Program-made: the position numbers and the translations under genes
The notes under the pieces: model-generated
The model's database searches: none
Told to the model about the DNA's origin: nothing
The model's input: the letters and a program-made list of their open reading frames with translations, nothing else
Part shown: piece by piece, positions 25,025 to 34,920 of the stretch
Layout: each line of letters begins with the position of its first letter
Numbering within the stretch: the first letter of the stretch is position 1
NCBI GenBank assembly: GCA_036397795.1
Contig: DASWIF010000040.1
Span: forward strand, 1 to 59,038
Direction of reading: 5' to 3'
Origin: Candidatus Saccharimonadales bacterium
GTDB lineage: Bacteria > Patescibacteriota > Saccharimonadia > Saccharimonadales > DASWIF01
DNA: 59,038 nucleotides

Positions 25025-25394
25025 CGTCCCAGCAAGCTCCAAACTGTACGCTTTCAGAATCACTGAAGATTGTTTCTGAAAGCTAGCTAGTTTTCCACTG
25101 CTGCTCCTTAAAATTCATCAAACAGCTTTGCTTGGTTTGATGAATTTAGGAAAACAAAATTGGAAACCAAGCCTTGGCTGCTTACAATTTTTAAGAGGAG
25201 GAATTGCGGGGTGGCTTTTCAAGCTTTGCCCTTAAGCAAAGTGGCTGCCACTATAGCCATTTTCGACTAAGGATAGGTCCAAGTTCATAATTGTTTACGA
25301 AGCAAACATTTTCAAAGGAAAACGTAAAAGTCCACTGGACTTTTACGGGCTTCAGGGGTAAACCCCTCCAGCTCTTGGGAGCATTCTCATCATG

Positions 25395-27363: not shown

Positions 27364-28148
27364 CAACCCCGCTCCTTAATGTATGGTTTGGCCGTATCGG
27401 ACAGATTGATCAGCAAATCGACAGTTTCATCCAGTGGCATTGATCGAATATGTTCAAGTTCAAATTTGATACCGGGCACGCTCCACTGGCTTTGCCATTG
27501 GCCGCCGCTAGGTGGCTCCAGCCCGAACAACTCCTCCCTGACCGGCCAGGCATAGTGGTACAGATACGGCTGGTCTTTGAGTTGGCCGGGCGAAAATCCA
27601 AAGTTCATGTGAGGGTCGTGATCTTCTGACTGGCCTTTTAGGAAGTATAAAAATGACAGATCAAAACCATGTGGCCACAACACAACCGGGGTTTTGGTAC
27701 CAGCCAGTTTGTTTCTAGCCTGGTTTAAAACCCGGTTCATCTTGGTTTGAATCTTCAGATAGGCGACAGCGCTGGCTTCGTCCGCTATGAGCCGGCCGTC
27801 GCTGATACTCTCCGGCAGATTAGCAGCGCTAATTTGATCGTGCTGCGAGGCAAGCATCTCCAGTAAGTTCCGCAAAATCGTCTGCTCGCTGGCGCCGCTC
27901 AGAGCGATGTCAAAAGCCCCGCCGCCCGGCTTGGCGTAGCTGACGGATAATGCGGGATAGTCTACAACCAACTCACCGCCAAATGGCAGATCCCCGCTGC
28001 TGGCGCCATACTCGGTCGGGACGATGGCATAATGCAGATAATTCGGGATGGGCCGAGCGACTAATCGTTTCACCCAACCGACAGCTCGCAAACCCGTATG
28101 GAGGGCATCTCGGGTCTTAAACCAAGCGTCATTAACCTCTAATGGCAT
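27363..28148 (-). CDS. Hypothetical protein, co-oriented and overlapping with folA
   Basis: ORF track, 261 aa. I recognised no motif. Confidence 0.6.
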
Positions 28149-31382: not shown

Positions 31383-31915
31383 GACATTAATTTGTCTAGC
31401 TGTTCCAATACGTCTGGGAGATTATCCTGTCGGTAGATAATTAGCTGATCATACTCAGTTCTAAGCGGCGGTTTTATGGCAGTTTTAGCGTAAGATTGGT
31501 ACCAATCTACTTAGGGTGGTTGCTTCTCGCTCAAGCGTTTAATCAGCTGCGGTTCATCAACTTGGCAGTGAATCATTATGATTGGAACCAAGGGAGATTG
31601 AGTTTTTATGAGATTGCCGTATTTGGCACGGCTTGATAGGGTTGATGCCGCCTTCAACGATAGCACTTTGGCCCCGGCTCAGCAGTTCCTTGAATAGTTC
31701 GACTCGCCACAAGTCCACAACCCGCCTAAATGAGTCATTGACACCCCGCCCCTGCATCGCCGCTGGCCGCTTGTAGTACTTTTTTGATTTAAGAGTTTAC
31801 GGATCTGACCCCCGTCGATTACGTTCAACTGTGGCCACTTGGTGGCGATTTGTTTGCTCAGGGTTGATTTTTTGCTGGCGGGATAACCCACGATGTTGAT
31901 AAACACTTGTTTCAT
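31379..31915 (-). pseudogene. Degraded P-loop kinase/AAA-like gene (at least 2 frameshifts plus an in-frame stop)
   Basis: Three successive minus-strand frames carry pieces of one protein. (1) MKQVFINIVGYPASKKSTLSKQIATKWPQLNVIDGG, a decayed Walker A. (2) RRVVDLWRVELFKELLSRGQSAIVEGGINP. (3) YGNLIKTQSPLVPIIMIHCQVDEPQLIKRLSEKQPP*VDWYQSY...LEQLDKLMS. Confidence 0.6.
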
Positions 31916-31955
31916 ACCCGAATTATATCAACCAAACAGTGGTAAAATAGAAATA

Positions 31956-32693
31956 ATGTCAGTTATTTCGATGTCCGGAATCAGTAAGATTTATGGTTTG
32001 GGCGATGCTACTACTATTGCTTTGGACGATATTGAGATGAGCGTCGATAAGGGCGAATTTGTGGCCATCATGGGTCCCAGCGGTTCGGGCAAATCGACGT
32101 TGCTTAATCTAATCGGACTATTAGATACCCCGACCCATGGTTCTTATATGCTAAACGAGCGTCCGGTAGCCAATTTAGGCAACAACGCCCGAGCCAGAGT
32201 CAGGCGGGAGCAAATCGGCTTTATCTTCCAGTCCTTTAATTTGCTAAGCCGGATGACAGTAATTGATAACGTCGCCCTGCCCTTGATGTACCGCGGAGTG
32301 GGCCATGTGGAGCGGCTGGAACGGGCTTCGACCATCCTGCGGCGGCTCGGCTTGGGCGAGCGTGAGTACTACCTCCCTAATCAATTATCGGGCGGCCAAA
32401 TCCAGCGGGTGGCCATTGCCCGGGCACTAGTCAACAACCCGGCAATCATTCTGGCGGACGAGCCGACCGGCAACCTCGATACCAAAACCGGTCTCAGTAT
32501 CTTAGACACCTTAAAAGACCTTAACGAACAGGGCAACACCGTCATTATGGTGACGCACGACCCGGATCTAGCGAAGTATGCCCAGCGCACCATACACGTG
32601 GTGGACGGACAGATAAAGGCCAGGCACGCTCCGGCGGCGGCCAAACCCAGAAAAAAACCCGCCAAAAAGACTAGCAGAAAGGCCAAAACCTGA
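31956..32693 (+). CDS. ABC transporter ATP-binding protein (MacB/LolD-type)
   Basis: ORF track 31893..32693, trimmed to ATG 31956. Walker A GPSGSGKST, signature LSGGQIQR, Walker B ILADEPTGNLD. Confidence 0.9.
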   Translation: MSVISMSGISKIYGLGDATTIALDDIEMSVDKGEFVAIMGPSGSGKSTLLNLIGLLDTPTHGSYMLNERPVANLGNNARARVRREQIGFIFQSFNLLSRMTVIDNVALPLMYRGVGHVERLERASTILRRLGLGEREYYLPNQLSGGQIQRVAIARALVNNPAIILADEPTGNLDTKTGLSILDTLKDLNEQGNTVIMVTHDPDLAKYAQRTIHVVDGQIKARHAPAAAKPRKKPAKKTSRKAKT

Positions 32694-33919
32694 TGTTTGT
32701 TATGAACCTTAAAATGGCCATAAACGCCTTGCGCGGTTCCAAGCTCAGAACCTTTCTAACCATGCTTGGCATTATTATCGGGGTCATGTCGGTTGTAACT
32801 TTCGTGTCATTTGGCCAAGGGCTAAAAAAGCAAGTGACAGACGAAGTTCGATCATTTGGCAACGACTTTTTACAAGCCAACCCCGGCGAGTCAATTGTCC
32901 GTGACGAGGAAGGCAAGATCGAAAGCTTTGATTTTCTAGCTACCTTCACCGCCCCGCCCTTTACCGAAAAAGACCTCGGCGCGATTAAGAAGCTAGACAA
33001 TGTTCGCATCGCCACCGGCTTTATGCTGGCCGCCAACGAAGTGGTGGTCGGCGATAACGAGCAAAAAGGCTTGTTCGTGATGTCGACCGAGCCAGCCATA
33101 CTGGAAGTTTTGGGCCAGGAGGTAGCCGATGGGACTTTTTTGGATGATAAGATCGAGAATGATTTTGTGGTGGTCTTGGGCAGCACGCTTAAGCAACAGT
33201 TGTTCGGAGAAAGTTCGGCCTTAGGCCGAAAAGTTGAGATTAAAAACCGGGAGTTTACGGTAATCGGCGTACTGGCGGAGTACCAGTCGGTTTTAAGCGG
33301 TGGCTTTGGCTCCGATTTCAACCGCTATGCCTACATCCCAATTGGCGCCGGCAAAGCTTTTAACCAGGGCGTGGCCCAGTTCATTGAATTTGATATCAAG
33401 GTTGAAAATGTCGAACGGATCGATGAGACCATAGGTGACATCAGCCAATCGTTGCTCAAAACCCGCGGCAGCGATGACTTTTCCATCAGTAAACCGGAAG
33501 AGTTTTTAGACACCGTCGACACAATTCTTAATCTGTTGACGACGGCCGTGACGGCGATCGCGTCGATTTCAGTGCTGGTTGGCGGCATCGGCATTATGAA
33601 TATCATGTTCGTCACGGTTTCCGAAAGAACGCGGGAGATCGGTATCAGAAAAGCTATTGGCGCCACTAACGGCCAAATCCTATCCCAGTTTTTAATCGAA
33701 GCCATCGTCATTACTGTCATCGGCGCCGCCATCGGCGTCGGCTTGTCCGCCCTAATTGGCCTAATCGTGGAACTGACGACGGAATTCGAGCCCTCGATTA
33801 CGCTGTCTAGCATCGCCATTGCCGCGGCCGCGGCGGCGCTGTTTGGCATAGTGTTTGGTATTGTGCCCGCGGCCAAGGCGGCCAGGAAAGATCCGATTGA
33901 ATCATTGCGCCACGACTAA
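32693..33919 (+). CDS. ABC transporter permease, MacB/FtsX family
   Basis: ORF track, 408 aa. N-terminal TM, large periplasmic domain, C-terminal FtsX-type TM bundle (ERTREIGIRKAIGAT). Its start overlaps the ATPase stop. Confidence 0.88.
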   Translation: MFVMNLKMAINALRGSKLRTFLTMLGIIIGVMSVVTFVSFGQGLKKQVTDEVRSFGNDFLQANPGESIVRDEEGKIESFDFLATFTAPPFTEKDLGAIKKLDNVRIATGFMLAANEVVVGDNEQKGLFVMSTEPAILEVLGQEVADGTFLDDKIENDFVVVLGSTLKQQLFGESSALGRKVEIKNREFTVIGVLAEYQSVLSGGFGSDFNRYAYIPIGAGKAFNQGVAQFIEFDIKVENVERIDETIGDISQSLLKTRGSDDFSISKPEEFLDTVDTILNLLTTAVTAIASISVLVGGIGIMNIMFVTVSERTREIGIRKAIGATNGQILSQFLIEAIVITVIGAAIGVGLSALIGLIVELTTEFEPSITLSSIAIAAAAAALFGIVFGIVPAAKAARKDPIESLRHD

Positions 33920-33933
33920 GACTAAGTCGTGGC
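33909..33933 (+). terminator. 9-bp hairpin spanning the permease stop codon (weak terminator candidate)
   Basis: GCCACGACT (33909-33917) / AGTCGTGGC (33925-33933), followed only by TTT. Confidence 0.35.
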
Positions 33934-33936
33934 TTT

Positions 33937-34136
33937 AAGGAGGGGGACACCCTCTCCTTAGGTTCGCCTTCGGCTTACGATTCTCCCCCTCAACCAGTAT
34001 TGAAAAACTCGAAATGAATTCGAAGTTTTTCAATTATTTTCTTGAAACTGTTCGCGCCGTTTAGCGGGCGACGGTCCGGCTGGCTGTTAGAGCAAGGCTA
34101 ATCCATTTGTCGACGAATCGAACTAAACGCTGGTGC
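33937..34136 (+). repeat. Structured 200-bp tandem repeat, unit 1
   Basis: Contains AGGAGGGGGA..TCTCCCCCT, an AT-rich hairpin at 33999-34034 (ATTGAAAAACTCGAA / TTCGAAGTTTTTCAAT) and a GC hairpin near 34052-34072. Confidence 0.6.
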
Positions 34137-34296
34137 CGTAGGAGGTAGAACATCTCCCCCTTAGACTCGCTTAGCTCATGATTCCCCTCTGAAGACGTAT
34201 CAATGAAATGGAAATAAATTCCAATTTCATTGATGAATTTCTCTAAATAGTCGGCTCAACTACTATCTGAGCCGACATAGGATTTATACTAGCAGC
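34137..34296 (+). repeat. Structured 200-bp tandem repeat, unit 2 (truncated by the sortase start)
   Basis: The same architecture exactly 200 bp later. Hairpin 34199-34234 (ATCAATGAAATGGAA / TTCCAATTTCATTGAT) and hairpin GTCGGCTCA / TGAGCCGAC at 34250-34276. Confidence 0.6.
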
Positions 34297-34920
34297 ATGA
34301 CACTTACAAAACCGACTCATCGGCAGGTGAATAATTGGCTGTCAGGTGTGGTGATTGCCTTGGGGCTTTATATTACGATTTTGCCTTGGCTGCCCGGTAT
34401 CAAACTTTGGATAACCCAATTACTCGATGACACTAACGGCTATGTTTACCGGGGCGACTTAGCCAGTGGCCAGGTCGATAGCAGCAAGTTATCGGATCCG
34501 CCAGAGGAGAATACATTGCTCGTGCCGTCTATCGCGCTTGATGTGCCGGTAGTCGAGGGCGCGGATATCAGCGTGCTCGGCGTCGGTGGCAGCTGGCGGC
34601 GGCCCAAAACCAGCACGCCGGACAAGGGCGGCAACACAGTCATTATCGGCCATCGATTCAGCTATTCCAGCGAGGCGGCATTTTATAATCTCGACAAGAT
34701 TGACGTCGGCGAGCGGTTTGCGATTTGGTGGAACCGGCAAGAATACATCTACGAGGTATTCGATAAATCCGTCGTACCGGCTTCGGCAATTGAGATTGAG
34801 GCTGATACGGCGGATCCAATAGCTACCCTCTACACCTGTACGCCAATCTGGACCGCTACCAATCGGCTGGTCATAAAAGGCCATTTGGTAAATACTGATA
34901 TTCTGGAGCCAAAGCCATGA
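34297..34920 (+). CDS. Sortase-family transpeptidase
   Basis: ORF track, 207 aa. N-terminal TM, catalytic His VIIGHRF, catalytic Cys TLYTCTP, and Arg in NRLVIKG. Confidence 0.85.
   Translation: MTLTKPTHRQVNNWLSGVVIALGLYITILPWLPGIKLWITQLLDDTNGYVYRGDLASGQVDSSKLSDPPEENTLLVPSIALDVPVVEGADISVLGVGGSWRRPKTSTPDKGGNTVIIGHRFSYSSEAAFYNLDKIDVGERFAIWWNRQEYIYEVFDKSVVPASAIEIEADTADPIATLYTCTPIWTATNRLVIKGHLVNTDILEPKP

What the first reader, a model, noticed from the sequence alone, without database searches (positions are those of the whole stretch)
33909..34296. Two tandem 200-bp structured units upstream of the sortase gene, with hairpins that covary
The 377-bp spacer contains two copies of one architecture spaced exactly 200 bp apart. 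Each has an AGGAGG-containing purine box, then a C-rich box (GATTCTCCCCCT / GATTCCCCTCT), then a 15-16-bp AT-rich hairpin with a 5-nt loop, then TTTCT..AAA, then a GC hairpin. The long hairpins occupy equivalent positions (33999-34034 and 34199-34234). Their sequences differ (ATTGAAAAACTCGAA.. versus ATCAATGAAATGGAA..) while both keep full pairing with one bulged T, which is compensatory change. The downstream hairpins likewise differ in sequence (CGCGCCG..CGGGCG versus GTCGGCTCA..TGAGCCGAC). The non-stem parts are about 60-65% identical by eye. This looks like a duplicated structured RNA (sRNA pair or cis-leader of the sortase operon) or a MITE-like repeat family. The word TTGATGAATTT is shared with the hairpin at 25135-25147.
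Basis: seen in the sequence. Interest (0 to 1): 0.6.

Follow-up and report, generated by a model that had tools for sequence, protein, structure and literature searches.

The report
Mobile triplex-type repeat, inserted twice
The two "structured units" before the sortase gene are two separate insertions of a small mobile DNA repeat found across Saccharibacteria and other Patescibacteria; its three matching tracts vary together as a three-stranded helix would require, a kind of repeat already described in E. coli with no known function.

Summary
The 377-nt MacB-sortase spacer contains two units (33927-34050 and 34129-34276) with the same architecture. Their hairpins are supported by covariation across 37 family members.

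The units are not a sortase leader and not a local duplication. They belong to a dispersed repeat family with 8 full and at least 1 partial copy in this 780-kb Saccharibacteria genome. The family is found in about 10-17 of 60 other Saccharimonadales families sampled and in other Patescibacteria orders.

Nine relatives keep the same gene order, but their spacer is only about 10-60 nt and has no element. The reverse case also exists: a relative has a copy where this genome has none. In one relative a subfamily has terminal inverted repeats and 8-bp target-site duplications, so it is a true MITE.

The conserved core has three tracts. An all-purine arm pairs with an all-pyrimidine arm. A downstream C-rich box is the mirror image of the pyrimidine arm and covaries with it (0 of 5000 permutations reach the observed match). 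This is the layout of an intrastrand triplex motif, as in the PIT/BoxC/TMECO repeats, followed by a hairpin with a phylum-wide conserved apex, cGAAAUGAAUUCg.

Orientation relative to neighbouring genes is random, and no partner enzyme was found. This scan has found triplex-type repeats before on other DNA.

The parts
33909..33933 (+). Palindrome formed by the last codons of the MacB permease gene plus the first bases of the spacer (GCCACGACTAAG / CTAAGTCGTGGC). It lies at the left edge of the insertion and is not part of the repeat family.
   Evidence: I4, 12-nt arms, 92% complementary.
33927..34050 (+). Unit A: a full copy of the repeat family. Its closest paralogue is the copy at C34:5984-6093, 83% identical.
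   Evidence: nhmmer E=4.8e-31; CM 122 bits; identity matrix.
33936..33960 (+). Unit A HP1: purine arm TAAGGAGGGGG (33936-33946), loop ACA, pyrimidine arm CCCTCTCCTTA (33950-33960), with one G.T pair.
   Evidence: (I6). Across 37 family members the core pairs are only G-C, A-U or G-U, with the purine always on the 5' side.
33966..33974 (+). Unit A HP2: small variable GC hairpin (GCC-TTC-GGC) inside 'loop 2'. Its length is 0-45 nt across the family.
   Evidence: alignments; read directly from the sequence.
33979..33989 (+). Unit A C-box GATTCTCCCCC. It mirrors the pyrimidine arm, i.e. it is the parallel A->T, G->C image of the purine arm, and is the candidate third strand of a triplex.
   Evidence: 8 of 9 positions canonical in unit A; family-wide permutation 0 of 5000.
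33999..34034 (+). Unit A HP3: 15-16-bp A/T-rich hairpin with the conserved apex cGAAATGAATTCg.
   Evidence: (I3); apex conserved phylum-wide.
34035..34043 (+). Unit A T-rich tail, TATTTTCTT.
   Evidence: T-rich in 6 of 8 copies in this genome but not in the copies from other orders. No canonical terminator was found by the scan.
34053..34070 (+). GC hairpin after unit A (CGCGCCG..CGGGCG). It is not shared with other copies, so its membership in the element is not shown.
34129..34276 (+). Unit B: a second, more decayed copy from another subfamily (closest to the C57 and C15 copies, 82%). It extends through a GC hairpin that it shares with the C2 copy.
   Evidence: nhmmer E=8.3e-28; CM 118 bits; B-versus-C2 alignment.
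34139..34163 (+). Unit B HP1: decayed purine arm TAGGAGGTAGA (34139-34149), loop ACA, pyrimidine arm TCTCCCCCTTA (34153-34163), with three non-Watson-Crick positions.
34180..34190 (+). Unit B C-box GATTCCCCTCT, the mirror of its pyrimidine arm (ATTCCCCCTCT) apart from one missing C.
34199..34234 (+). Unit B HP3 with apex gGAAATAAATTCc.
   Evidence: (I1).
34250..34276 (+). Unit B HP4: GC hairpin GTCGGCTCA..TGAGCCGAC, homologous to CGGCTCA..TGAGCCG after the C2 copy.
34285..34290 (+). Native -10 box TATACT of the sortase gene, 6 nt before the ATG at 34297. It is not part of the repeat and marks the right edge of the insertion.
   Evidence: seven of the nine orthologous junctions show TATACT, TACAAT or TATAAT 6-9 nt before the proposed sortase ATG.

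Best explanation
The spacer holds two independently inserted copies of a small (about 125-175 nt), non-coding, non-autonomous mobile repeat. The repeat is widespread in Saccharibacteria and other Patescibacteria.

Shown:
- It is a dispersed family.
- Copies are present or absent at orthologous junctions.
- One related subfamily is a true MITE with TIRs and 8-bp target-site duplications.
- Insertions sit in the only permissive slot of these compact genomes, between a stop codon and the -10 box of the next gene. That gene is probably leaderless.

The conserved core runs 5' to 3' on the window's + strand:
1. A purine arm.
2. A 3-5-nt loop.
3. A pyrimidine arm.
4. A second loop that may carry a small hairpin.
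5. A pyrimidine box that mirrors the pyrimidine arm.
6. A long hairpin with the conserved apex cGAAAUGAAUUCg.

Inferred: the three tracts fold on a single strand into an intrastrand triple helix. This would be pyrimidine-motif class III on the + strand, or equivalently purine-motif class I on the - strand. The most likely form is transient single-stranded DNA during replication or transposition, with the G-rich (- strand) form favoured at neutral pH. I infer that the conserved-apex hairpin is the sequence-specific handle for the unknown protein that moves or maintains the element.

For the sortase gene, the insertions only push the MacB operon 377 nt away. They may add weak termination in between.
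For: Family membership and copy number. There are 8 full copies, a partial copy at C14, and a weaker second truncated unit next to the C15 copy. BLAST E is as low as 5.8e-19 between different contigs.

Distribution:
- 17 of 60 genomes from other families of the order have a match at E<=0.01, and about 10 at E<=1e-4. Copy numbers reach 18, 7 and 6 per genome.
- Other orders of the phylum also carry it, 4 of 6 genomes in one family.

Insertion polymorphism:
- The order ABC-ATPase / MacB / sortase / PGI-like is kept in 9 relatives. Their MacB-sortase spacers are about 10-60 nt (read from the stop-to-ATG sequences). The model finds no match in them.
- Metagenome contig L085 is collinear with C34:10998-16256 of this genome. 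It has a copy filling a roughly 120-nt spacer that is about 30 nt and empty here.

MITE features in relative G043: about 175-nt copies with TIRs GTAACYGCTCAC / GTGAGAGGYTAC. Perfect 8-bp TSDs are present in L042, L044, L045 and L050. L043 shares a perfect 7-mer. L047 and L052 match at 7 of 8 by my reading of the flanks printed.

Hairpins: covariation is strong. HP1 core pairs are never C-G or U-A, so the purine strand stays purine. HP3 shows all four pair types.

Third strand:
- The C-box matches the mirror of the pyrimidine arm with mean local score 6.94, against 5.44 +/- 0.18 in 5000 permuted pairings (0 reach it).
- The match to a direct copy is 5.43 against 5.28 (977 of 5000 reach it).
- Mirror beats direct in 29 of 34 elements with distinct HP1.
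- 315 of 347 aligned third-strand positions (91%) are canonical.
- Independent switches include AAGAGGAGG/UUCUCCUCC, AAAGGGGAGA/UUUCCCUCU, GAGAAGAGG/CUCUUCUCC, GAGAGGGGA/CUCUCCCCU and GAGGGGAAA/CUCCCCUUU.
- Loop 2 can be only 2-3 nt (L091).

A and B are separate insertions: they are 77% identical to each other, while A is 83% identical to C34 and B is 82% to C57 and C15.

Orientation is random: the upstream gene is on the same strand in 15 cases and the opposite strand in 13. For the downstream gene it is 14 and 14.

Known precedent for the kind, and the strand and class logic: Holder et al. 2015, PMC4666352.
Against: - No TIRs or TSDs could be defined for the copies in this genome, which are 74-89% identical to each other. 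Their own mode of movement is therefore not shown.
- No autonomous partner was found. DUF559, IS66 and ISL3 transposases were not found in the genomes searched, including this one. IS256-type and Y1 transposases are absent from this genome. The IS256-like gene in G043 has different inverted repeats, and the Y1 transposases in G043 and G021 are not flanked by copies.
- Triplex formation is inferred from covariation only. Many copies have a third strand one nucleotide shorter than the duplex. Runs of C+.G-C triplets are unfavourable at neutral pH. For E. coli TMECO, in vivo footprinting did not detect a triplex.
- The strand cannot be assigned. G.T versus A.C counts are 6 versus 9 in HP1 and 10 versus 17 in HP3. 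The substitution spectrum of the third strand is not decisive.
- The permutation tests do not correct for relatedness of copies. The direct-repeat control, which shares the same relatedness, shows no excess.
- The orientation calls rest on crude ORF calling.
Confidence: 0.78

Rival explanations
1. The element works as RNA. The + strand transcript folds into a pyrimidine-motif RNA triple helix (U.A-U, C+.G-C) followed by a hairpin and a U-rich tail. It would act as a 3'-end module that terminates or stabilises the upstream transcript, or as a small RNA.
For: - Class III pyrimidine-motif triplexes can form in RNA (Holder 2015 introduction).
- In this genome 6 of 8 copies have a T-rich tail after HP3.
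- Several copies directly follow co-oriented genes, and one lies 178 nt downstream of the 16S rRNA.
- The unit A RNA fold has z=-3.9.
Against: - Orientation relative to neighbours is random. For example, the L085 copy is antisense to both neighbours.
- The reverse strand folds equally well, z=-3.9.
- There is no excess of G.U over A.C mismatches.
- The U-rich tail is not conserved in other orders.
- The scan finds no canonical terminator, and Rfam gives no match.
- No conserved promoter lies upstream of HP1.
- Five consecutive C+.G-C triplets need acidic pH.
Confidence: 0.12
2. The two units are a cis-regulatory leader (attenuator or riboswitch-like) of the sortase gene.
For: The units lie directly upstream of sortase and on the same strand. 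Each contains an SD-like purine tract that could pair with either of two C-rich tracts.
Against: - No element was found near 16 sortase orthologues, 9 of them in conserved synteny with spacers of about 10-60 nt.
- The sortase -10 box lies downstream of the units, 6 nt before the ATG, so the units are probably not in the sortase mRNA.
- The same element sits next to unrelated genes and after the 16S rRNA.
- The C-box is a mirror of the pyrimidine arm, not a direct copy. It therefore cannot serve as an alternative Watson-Crick partner of the purine arm.
Confidence: 0.02
3. The element is a host-maintained DNA site rather than a selfish mobile element. It would be a structured intergenic site bound by a host protein, as REP/BIME elements bind gyrase and IHF, or a site that modulates replication or recombination. 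It would spread mainly by recombination or gene conversion.
For: - The architecture and the HP3 apex are conserved across orders of the phylum, which is unusually deep for a MITE.
- No transposase partner was found.
- Copies in this genome are old (74-89% identical) and lack TIRs or TSDs.
- TMECO repeats are likewise not linked to mobile elements.
Against: - Distribution among families is patchy, with copy numbers from 0 to 18.
- Orthologous sites are empty.
- A subfamily with TIRs and TSDs carries the same core.
- There is no positional or orientation rule relative to genes.
Confidence: 0.08

Closest known systems
PIT elements / BoxC / TMECO intrastrand triplex motif repeats of E. coli and other Proteobacteria and Cyanobacteria (Hoyne et al. 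2000 as cited in, and Holder et al. 2015, NAR, PMC4666352)
   Same: - Three consecutive tracts on one strand: a homopurine tract, its Watson-Crick homopyrimidine partner and a mirror third tract.
- Multi-copy and always intergenic, with no orientation or gene-function bias (compared here).
- Presence varies between related genomes.
- No promoter or terminator activity has been assigned, and no function is known.
   Different: - TMECO is class II (Y-R-R') with a fixed consensus, CCCTCNCCC N3-6 GGGNGAGGG N3 GGGNGAGGG. This family is R-Y-Y' (class III) on one strand and R'-R-Y (class I) on the other. Its A/G tracts are mixed and change between lineages.
- Loop 2 is usually 18-45 nt and carries its own hairpin. 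That is outside the loop limits of the published searches (0-10 nt and 1-6 nt).
- The triplex module is coupled to a second long hairpin with a conserved apex.
- One subfamily lies inside a TIR/TSD MITE, whereas TMECO was not found with mobile elements.
- The host phylum is Patescibacteria.
Bacterial MITEs such as Correia/NEMIS elements of Neisseria, or RUP and BOX of pneumococci (from general knowledge)
   Same: - Elements of 100-200 nt, non-coding and in many dispersed intergenic copies.
[quoted passage not shown]
- They insert next to promoters and gene ends.
- A subfamily here has TIRs and TSDs.
   Different: - Those MITEs fold by pairing of their terminal inverted repeats. Here the conserved structure is internal (triplex-type core plus apex hairpin), and the core is shared between TIR-bearing and TIR-less forms.
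- No parent IS was identified.
REP/REPIN elements with RAYT (Y1) transposases
   Same: - Short structured intergenic repeats with a conserved hairpin.
- Copies sometimes occur in inverted pairs (G021, L014: two inverted copies around a 115-aa ORF).
   Different: - No Y1 transposase was found in this genome. The Y1 genes in G043 and G021 are not flanked by copies.
- The element is longer than a REP and contains the purine/pyrimidine mirror design.
RNA triple helices of the ENE type (PAN, MALAT1, transposon ENEs) (from general knowledge)
   Same: A major-groove pyrimidine third strand lying on a purine strand of a hairpin would be the common principle if the element acted as RNA.
   Different: - ENEs clamp a 3' poly(A) tail with U-rich internal loops and use mainly U.A-U triples.
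- Here the third strand is internal and C-rich.
- Nothing shows that the element acts as RNA.

Membership tests
MITE (miniature inverted-repeat transposable element) | Small (under about 300 bp), non-coding, in multiple dispersed copies | tested here: met
   8 full copies of about 125-175 nt on 7 contigs, plus partial copies. No conserved ORF: the short ORFs in HP3 differ between copies (read).
MITE (miniature inverted-repeat transposable element) | Presence or absence at orthologous sites | tested here: met
   The MacB-sortase junction is empty in 9 syntenic relatives. The L085 junction is filled where this genome's is empty.
MITE (miniature inverted-repeat transposable element) | Terminal inverted repeats | tested here: inconclusive
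   Clear in the G043 subfamily (GTAACYGCTCAC / GTGAGAGGYTAC). Not detectable in the diverged copies of the window's genome.
MITE (miniature inverted-repeat transposable element) | Target-site duplication | tested here: inconclusive
   Perfect 8-bp TSDs in 4 of 12 G043 copies. A perfect shared 7-mer in L043, and 7 of 8 in L047 and L052 by my reading of the flanks printed. None definable for the window's copies, whose ends are blurred.
MITE (miniature inverted-repeat transposable element) | Autonomous partner IS with the same ends | tested here: not met
   No paired TIRs at IS-like spacing that enclose a transposase. PF03050 and PF01610 were absent from the genomes searched, and the PF00872 hit in G043 has other inverted repeats. 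The MAGs are 90-95% complete, so absence is not proven.
Intrastrand triplex motif repeats (PIT / BoxC / TMECO; ITxF classes I-IV) | Homopurine tract, complementary homopyrimidine tract and a mirror third tract in series on one strand | tested here: met
   R-Y-Y' layout in all full copies. HP1 core pairs are only G-C, A-U or G-U with the purine on the 5' side. The mirror relation is significant: 0 of 5000 permutations reach it, against 977 of 5000 for the direct-repeat control.
Intrastrand triplex motif repeats (PIT / BoxC / TMECO; ITxF classes I-IV) | Stem of at least 8 triplets with at most one mismatch (ITxF criterion) | tested here: met
   Unit A has 8 of 9 canonical positions. Many relatives have 9 of 9 to 10 of 11. 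Unit B is decayed in its purine arm.
Intrastrand triplex motif repeats (PIT / BoxC / TMECO; ITxF classes I-IV) | Short loops (1-6 nt in ITxF; 0-10 nt in Hoyne et al.) | tested here: not met
   Loop 1 is 3-7 nt. Loop 2 is 18 nt (unit A) and 16 nt (unit B), and up to about 45 nt with an internal hairpin. It is short (2-3 nt) only in some copies from other orders (L091).
Intrastrand triplex motif repeats (PIT / BoxC / TMECO; ITxF classes I-IV) | TMECO consensus CCCTCNCCC N3-6 GGGNGAGGG N3 GGGNGAGGG (class II) | tested here: not met
   Different order of tracts (class III/I) and different, variable sequences.
Intrastrand triplex motif repeats (PIT / BoxC / TMECO; ITxF classes I-IV) | Triplex actually forms (CD, NMR, melting) | not testable with these tools
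   Comparative evidence only.
Rfam RNA families (riboswitch, sRNA, ribozyme) | Match to a curated covariance model | tested here: not met
   No match to the units approaches a gathering score. The best are mir-982 (17.7 bits, E=6.2) and NrrF (15.1 bits, E=3.8). Only tRNAs reach gathering scores in the window.
Intrinsic (Rho-independent) terminator | GC-rich stem followed directly by a U tract | tested here: not met
   The scan finds none in 33700-34500. The HP3 stems are A/T-rich. The tails are T-rich in this genome only.
cis-leader of the sortase gene | Conserved upstream of orthologous genes and part of their transcript | tested here: not met
   No element in 16 sortase loci. The -10 box lies downstream of the units.
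REP/REPIN-RAYT system | Y1 (RAYT) transposase gene flanked by the repeats | tested here: not met
   PF01797 is absent from this genome. Where it is present (G043, G021) it is not flanked by copies.
DUF559-nuclease-associated triplex repeats (lead from earlier notes of this scan) | DUF559 gene bracketed by the repeats | tested here: not met
   PF04480 was not found in this genome or in five copy-bearing relatives.

The most novel reading that the evidence does not exclude
The triple helix is itself the selected, functional structure of a phylum-wide element. One possibility is a triplex-plus-hairpin recognised in single-stranded DNA by a still unknown class of mobilising enzyme. The other is a genuine bacterial RNA triple helix that shapes transcript 3' ends. 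In either case this family would give unusually clear comparative (three-way covariation) evidence that a long intramolecular triplex is maintained by selection in bacteria. It would also offer a tractable model, since some Saccharibacteria can now be cultured and manipulated genetically.
Probability: 0.2. Interest if true: 0.85.

Novelty: new variant of a known kind. Interest (0 to 1): 0.5.

Why it matters
Intrastrand triplex repeats (PIT/BoxC/TMECO) have been known for decades without a function, and with little evidence that the third strand matters.

In this family the purine arm changes many times across a phylum, and the third tract follows it in mirror fashion each time. The purine strand never flips to pyrimidine. 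That is selection on triplex-forming potential, seen in some of the smallest and most streamlined bacterial genomes, where useless DNA is scarce.

For annotation, the result explains unusually long spacers in Saccharibacteria. It also warns against calling these units sRNAs, riboswitches or leaders. For the sortase locus it means ordinary gene content with two parasitic or commensal insertions.

Tried and rejected
- Rfam at permissive thresholds: nothing.
- tRNA-like reading of 'GGTTCG..GATTC..CCA': ARAGORN finds no tRNA there.
- Small ORFs in the hairpins: not conserved between copies.
- C-box as an alternative Watson-Crick partner of the purine arm (riboswitch-type toggle): the direct-repeat relation is no better than permuted pairings.
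- SD / anti-SD mimicry: the 16S 3' end is GGAUUACCUCCUUUCU. The resemblance is only compositional, because the arms vary freely between A and G.
- Strand assignment from G.T versus A.C mismatches and from the third-strand substitution spectrum: not decisive.
- General terminator of this genome: hairpins with the conserved apex are limited to this family, with 5 strict hits genome-wide.
- Partner genes: DUF559, IS66, ISL3, IS256 and Y1 transposases. Solo TIRs in G043 near contig ends and a 2.3-kb TIR pair in C75 enclose no transposase.
- The 115-aa ORF between two inverted copies in G021: an orphan with no Pfam match, not found in other copy-bearing genomes.
- 'TTGTARC' at the left edge of three copies in this genome as a TIR: rejected. 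It is the reverse complement of the neighbours' own G-Y-TACAAT -10 region, which also occurs at element-free promoters.
- Viral carriers: 27 pattern hits in IMG/VR are unrelated, mostly RBS regions read backwards, and the family model matches none. There is no phage BLAST hit.
- The hairpin at 25110-25150: not a member.
Full report
**What is in the window.** The ORF at 32693-33919 is a MacB/FtsX-type ABC permease. It follows its ATPase, at 31893-32693. The ORF at 34297-34920 is a sortase.

The 377-nt spacer between them contains two units with the same architecture:

| Feature | Unit A | Unit B |
|---|---|---|
| Purine arm | TAAGGAGGGGG, 33936-33946 | TAGGAGGTAGA, 34139-34149 |
| Loop 1 | ACA | ACA |
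| Pyrimidine arm | CCCTCTCCTTA, 33950-33960 | TCTCCCCCTTA, 34153-34163 |
| Small GC hairpin (HP2) | 33966-33974 | 34169-34175 |
| C-rich box | GATTCTCCCCC, 33979-33989 | GATTCCCCTCT, 34180-34190 |
| Long A/T-rich hairpin (HP3) | 33999-34034 | 34199-34234 |
| Downstream GC hairpin | 34053-34070 | 34250-34276 |

Each long hairpin is followed by a T-rich tail. Only the long hairpins are exactly 200 nt apart. The purine boxes are 203 nt apart.

**It is a repeat family, not a local feature.** The window is contig C40 of a 780-kb, 80-contig genome that is 95% complete.
- BLAST, iterated nhmmer and a covariance model (R1) find 8 full copies on 7 contigs: C40 twice, C34, C2, C57, C15, C9 and C56.
- There is also a partial copy consisting of the long hairpin only (C14). 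A weaker second truncated unit lies next to the C15 copy.
- Units A and B are 77% identical to each other. A is closest to the C34 copy (83%) and B to the C57 and C15 copies (82%).
- B shares its downstream GC hairpin with the C2 copy.
- A and B are therefore two separate insertions side by side, not a tandem duplication.

**Organism and distribution.** Sortase relatives carry record titles of Candidatus Saccharibacteria / Saccharimonadales.
- R1 finds the family in 17 of 60 sampled genomes at E<=0.01, and about 10 at E<=1e-4. Each of these genomes comes from a different family of the same order. Copy numbers reach 18 (G043), 7 (G051) and 6 (G021).
- In a sample of 150 genomes across the phylum, 5 have it. 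Four of the six genomes of one family in another order are among them.
- It was not found in IMG/VR contigs or GenBank phages.
- I found no paper on such repeats in Saccharibacteria in the library searched.

**It is an insertion.**
- The order ABC-ATPase / MacB / sortase / PGI-like is conserved in at least 9 other Saccharibacteria.
- In those genomes the MacB stop and the sortase ATG are about 10-60 nt apart, by my reading of the sequences. R1 finds nothing in 16 sortase loci.
- In seven of the nine junctions shown, a -10 box (TATACT, TACAAT or TATAAT) lies 6-9 nt before the proposed ATG. These genes are probably leaderless or nearly so.
- The window keeps this box (TATACT at 34285-34290, then 6 nt, then ATG). 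The two units sit between the MacB stop and the native sortase promoter, so they are probably not part of the sortase mRNA.
- The converse case also exists. Metagenome contig L085 is collinear with C34:10998-16256 of this genome at 45-58% protein identity. It has a copy filling a roughly 120-nt spacer that is about 30 nt and empty in this genome.

**A related subfamily is a true MITE.** In G043, 12 near-identical copies of about 175 nt share the same purine arm, pyrimidine arm and C-box core.
- They are bounded by the inverted repeats GTAACYGCTCAC...GTGAGAGGYTAC.
- They are flanked by 8-bp direct duplications. These are perfect in L042 (TGCGAGAT), L044 (CTTTGAAA), L045 (GGCTGTTG) and L050 (GAGCAAAT).
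- L043 shares a perfect 7-mer. L047 and L052 match at 7 of 8 by my reading of the printed flanks.
- The copies in the window's genome are older, at 74-89% pairwise identity. I could not define their ends, TIRs or TSDs.

**Structure.** On 37 members, the two main helices are strongly supported:

| Measure | Observed | Shuffled control | Slid control |
|---|---|---|---|
| Cells paired | 92.2% | 69.7% | 43-65% |
| Pairs changed on both sides | 24 of 25 | 17.1 | 10-14 |
| Covariation score | 0.618 | 0.219 | 0.07-0.19 |

A further regularity is informative. In the eight core pairs of the first hairpin, the only pair types are G-C, A-U and a few G-U, always with the purine on the 5' side. The long hairpin uses A-U, U-A, G-C and C-G freely. 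The first hairpin is therefore constrained to keep a homopurine strand.

**The C-box is a mirror of the pyrimidine arm and covaries with it.** I noted this, before consulting earlier notes. Examples, giving the purine arm and then the C-box:

| Copy | Purine arm | C-box |
|---|---|---|
| L038, L014b | AAGAGGAGG | UUCUCCUCC |
| C9 (this genome) | AAAGGGGAGA | UUUCCCUCU |
| L058 | GAGAAGAGG | CUCUUCUCC |
| L024 | GAGAGGGGA | CUCUCCCCU |
| L086 (another order) | GAGGGGAAA | CUCCCCUUU |
| L090 | GAGAGGAAAA | CUCUCCUUUC |

The statistics agree:
- Over 34 elements with distinct first hairpins, the mean local match of the C-box region to the mirror of the pyrimidine arm is 6.94. In 5000 permuted pairings it is 5.44 +/- 0.18, and none reach the observed value.
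- The match to a direct copy is 5.43 against 5.28, and 977 of 5000 permutations reach it.
- Mirror beats direct in 29 of 34 elements, with 4 ties (first version).
- Of 347 aligned third-tract positions, 315 are the canonical partner: T opposite A, and C opposite G.
- A direct repeat would be expected if the C-box were an alternative Watson-Crick partner of the purine arm. A mirror repeat is what a Hoogsteen third strand requires.

Loop 2 usually holds a small variable hairpin, which in some relatives carries the same apex motif as the long hairpin. It can also be only 2-3 nt (L091).

**Relation to what is known.** Earlier notes of this scan pointed to the PIT/BoxC/TMECO literature. I read Holder et al. 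2015 (PMC4666352).
- Intrastrand triplex motifs fall into four classes. The + strand here is class III: purine tract, pyrimidine tract, then a Hoogsteen pyrimidine tract. As that paper notes for G/C-rich motifs, the complementary strand is then automatically a purine-motif class I.
- Purine-motif triplexes do not form in RNA. C-rich pyrimidine-motif triplexes need acidic pH.
- TMECO is class II with a fixed consensus and short loops.
- TMECO is intergenic, has no orientation or gene-function bias, shows no promoter or terminator activity, and is linked to local genomic variability. A triplex formed in vitro on single strands but was not detected in vivo.
- The present family shares the principle and the genomic behaviour.
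- It also differs in the attached hairpin with a conserved apex, in its link to a TIR/TSD MITE, and in host phylum.

**RNA or DNA, and which strand.** This could not be settled.
- Orientation relative to flanking ORFs is random. The upstream gene is on the same strand in 15 cases and the opposite in 13. For the downstream gene it is 14 and 14. These calls rest on crude ORF calling.
- G.T and A.C mismatches are about equal, and both strands fold equally well.
- No canonical terminator or promoter is found.
- The T-rich tail is not conserved outside the order.
- These points favour a DNA-level element whose structure forms transiently in single-stranded DNA, with the G-rich strand more plausible at neutral pH.

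**Partner enzyme.** None was found.
- DUF559, the lead from earlier notes, was not found in this genome or in five copy-bearing genomes.
- IS66 and ISL3 transposases are absent.
- The one IS256-like gene in G043 has different inverted repeats.
- Y1 transposases in G043 and G021 are not flanked by copies.
- The genomes are incomplete MAGs, so absence is not proven.

**Verdict.**
The 'MITE-like family' alternative is supported. The sRNA or leader alternative is not.
- The thing is a new variant of a known kind, a triplex-motif repeat riding on or acting as a MITE. This scan has found the kind before on other DNA.
- The notable contribution is the breadth and clarity of the three-way covariation.
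- Function and mechanism of spread remain inferred.

Noticed in passing
window 34285-34299, and loci L059-L069 just upstream of the sortase match: The sortase gene has a -10 box (TATACT, TACAAT or TATAAT) 6-9 nt before the proposed ATG here and in seven of the nine orthologous junctions shown. It lies directly after the MacB stop, with no room for an SD. This suggests leaderless or near-leaderless transcription as a common layout in these genomes. The same 'G-Y-TACAAT, 6-8 nt, ATG' layout is seen for the divergent genes next to the C2, C9 and C57 copies.
   Followed up: partly
G000:C15:27086-28081 (same genome, another contig): The 16S rRNA gene ends at C15:27086 (3' end ...GGATTACCTCCTTTCT). 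It is followed by a full copy of the repeat 178 nt downstream, then a second truncated unit (C-box plus apex hairpin, about 27396-27448), then a minus-strand ORF (27553-27897), and only then two tRNAs. The 16S gene therefore appears separated from the tRNAs that follow it by a reverse-strand gene.
   Followed up: partly
L014:1501-2139 (G021:C1:12934-13572): Two copies in inverted orientation bracket an orphan 115-aa ORF inserted between clpP and tig. The ORF has no Pfam match and no homologue in the other copy-bearing genomes checked. This looks like a cassette-like composite.
   Followed up: partly
window 33909-33933: A 12-bp-arm palindrome is formed by the last four codons and stop of the MacB gene (GCCACGACTAAG) and the first bases of the spacer (CTAAGTCGTGGC). 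It lies at the left edge of the insertion. Its origin is unexplained.
   Followed up: no
window 25100-25150: Downstream of tRNA-Ser there is a hairpin AAATTCATCAAAC..GTTTGATGAATTT preceded by GCTGCTCCTT. It resembles the C-box-plus-hairpin half of variant elements seen in other genomes, but scores only 7.4 bits with the family model. It may be a decayed remnant or a chance resemblance.
   Followed up: partly
L019, L025, L034, L020, L021, L029, L024 (relatives): In some relatives the conserved apex motif (GGAAUGAAUCC or CGAAAUAAAUUCG) also tops the hairpin that lies before the C-box. In several of them it seems to replace the purine/pyrimidine hairpin. The apex hairpin thus behaves as a separable module that can occur twice per element.
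   Followed up: no
G043:C42:411-638, G021:C32:1346-1579, G021:C30:526-750; G043:C51:10488-10706: Y1 (IS200/RAYT-like) transposase genes, and one IS256-like gene with its own inverted repeats (CGTGGAGGTTTTCC), are present in two copy-rich Saccharibacteria genomes. None is next to a copy of the repeat.
   Followed up: partly
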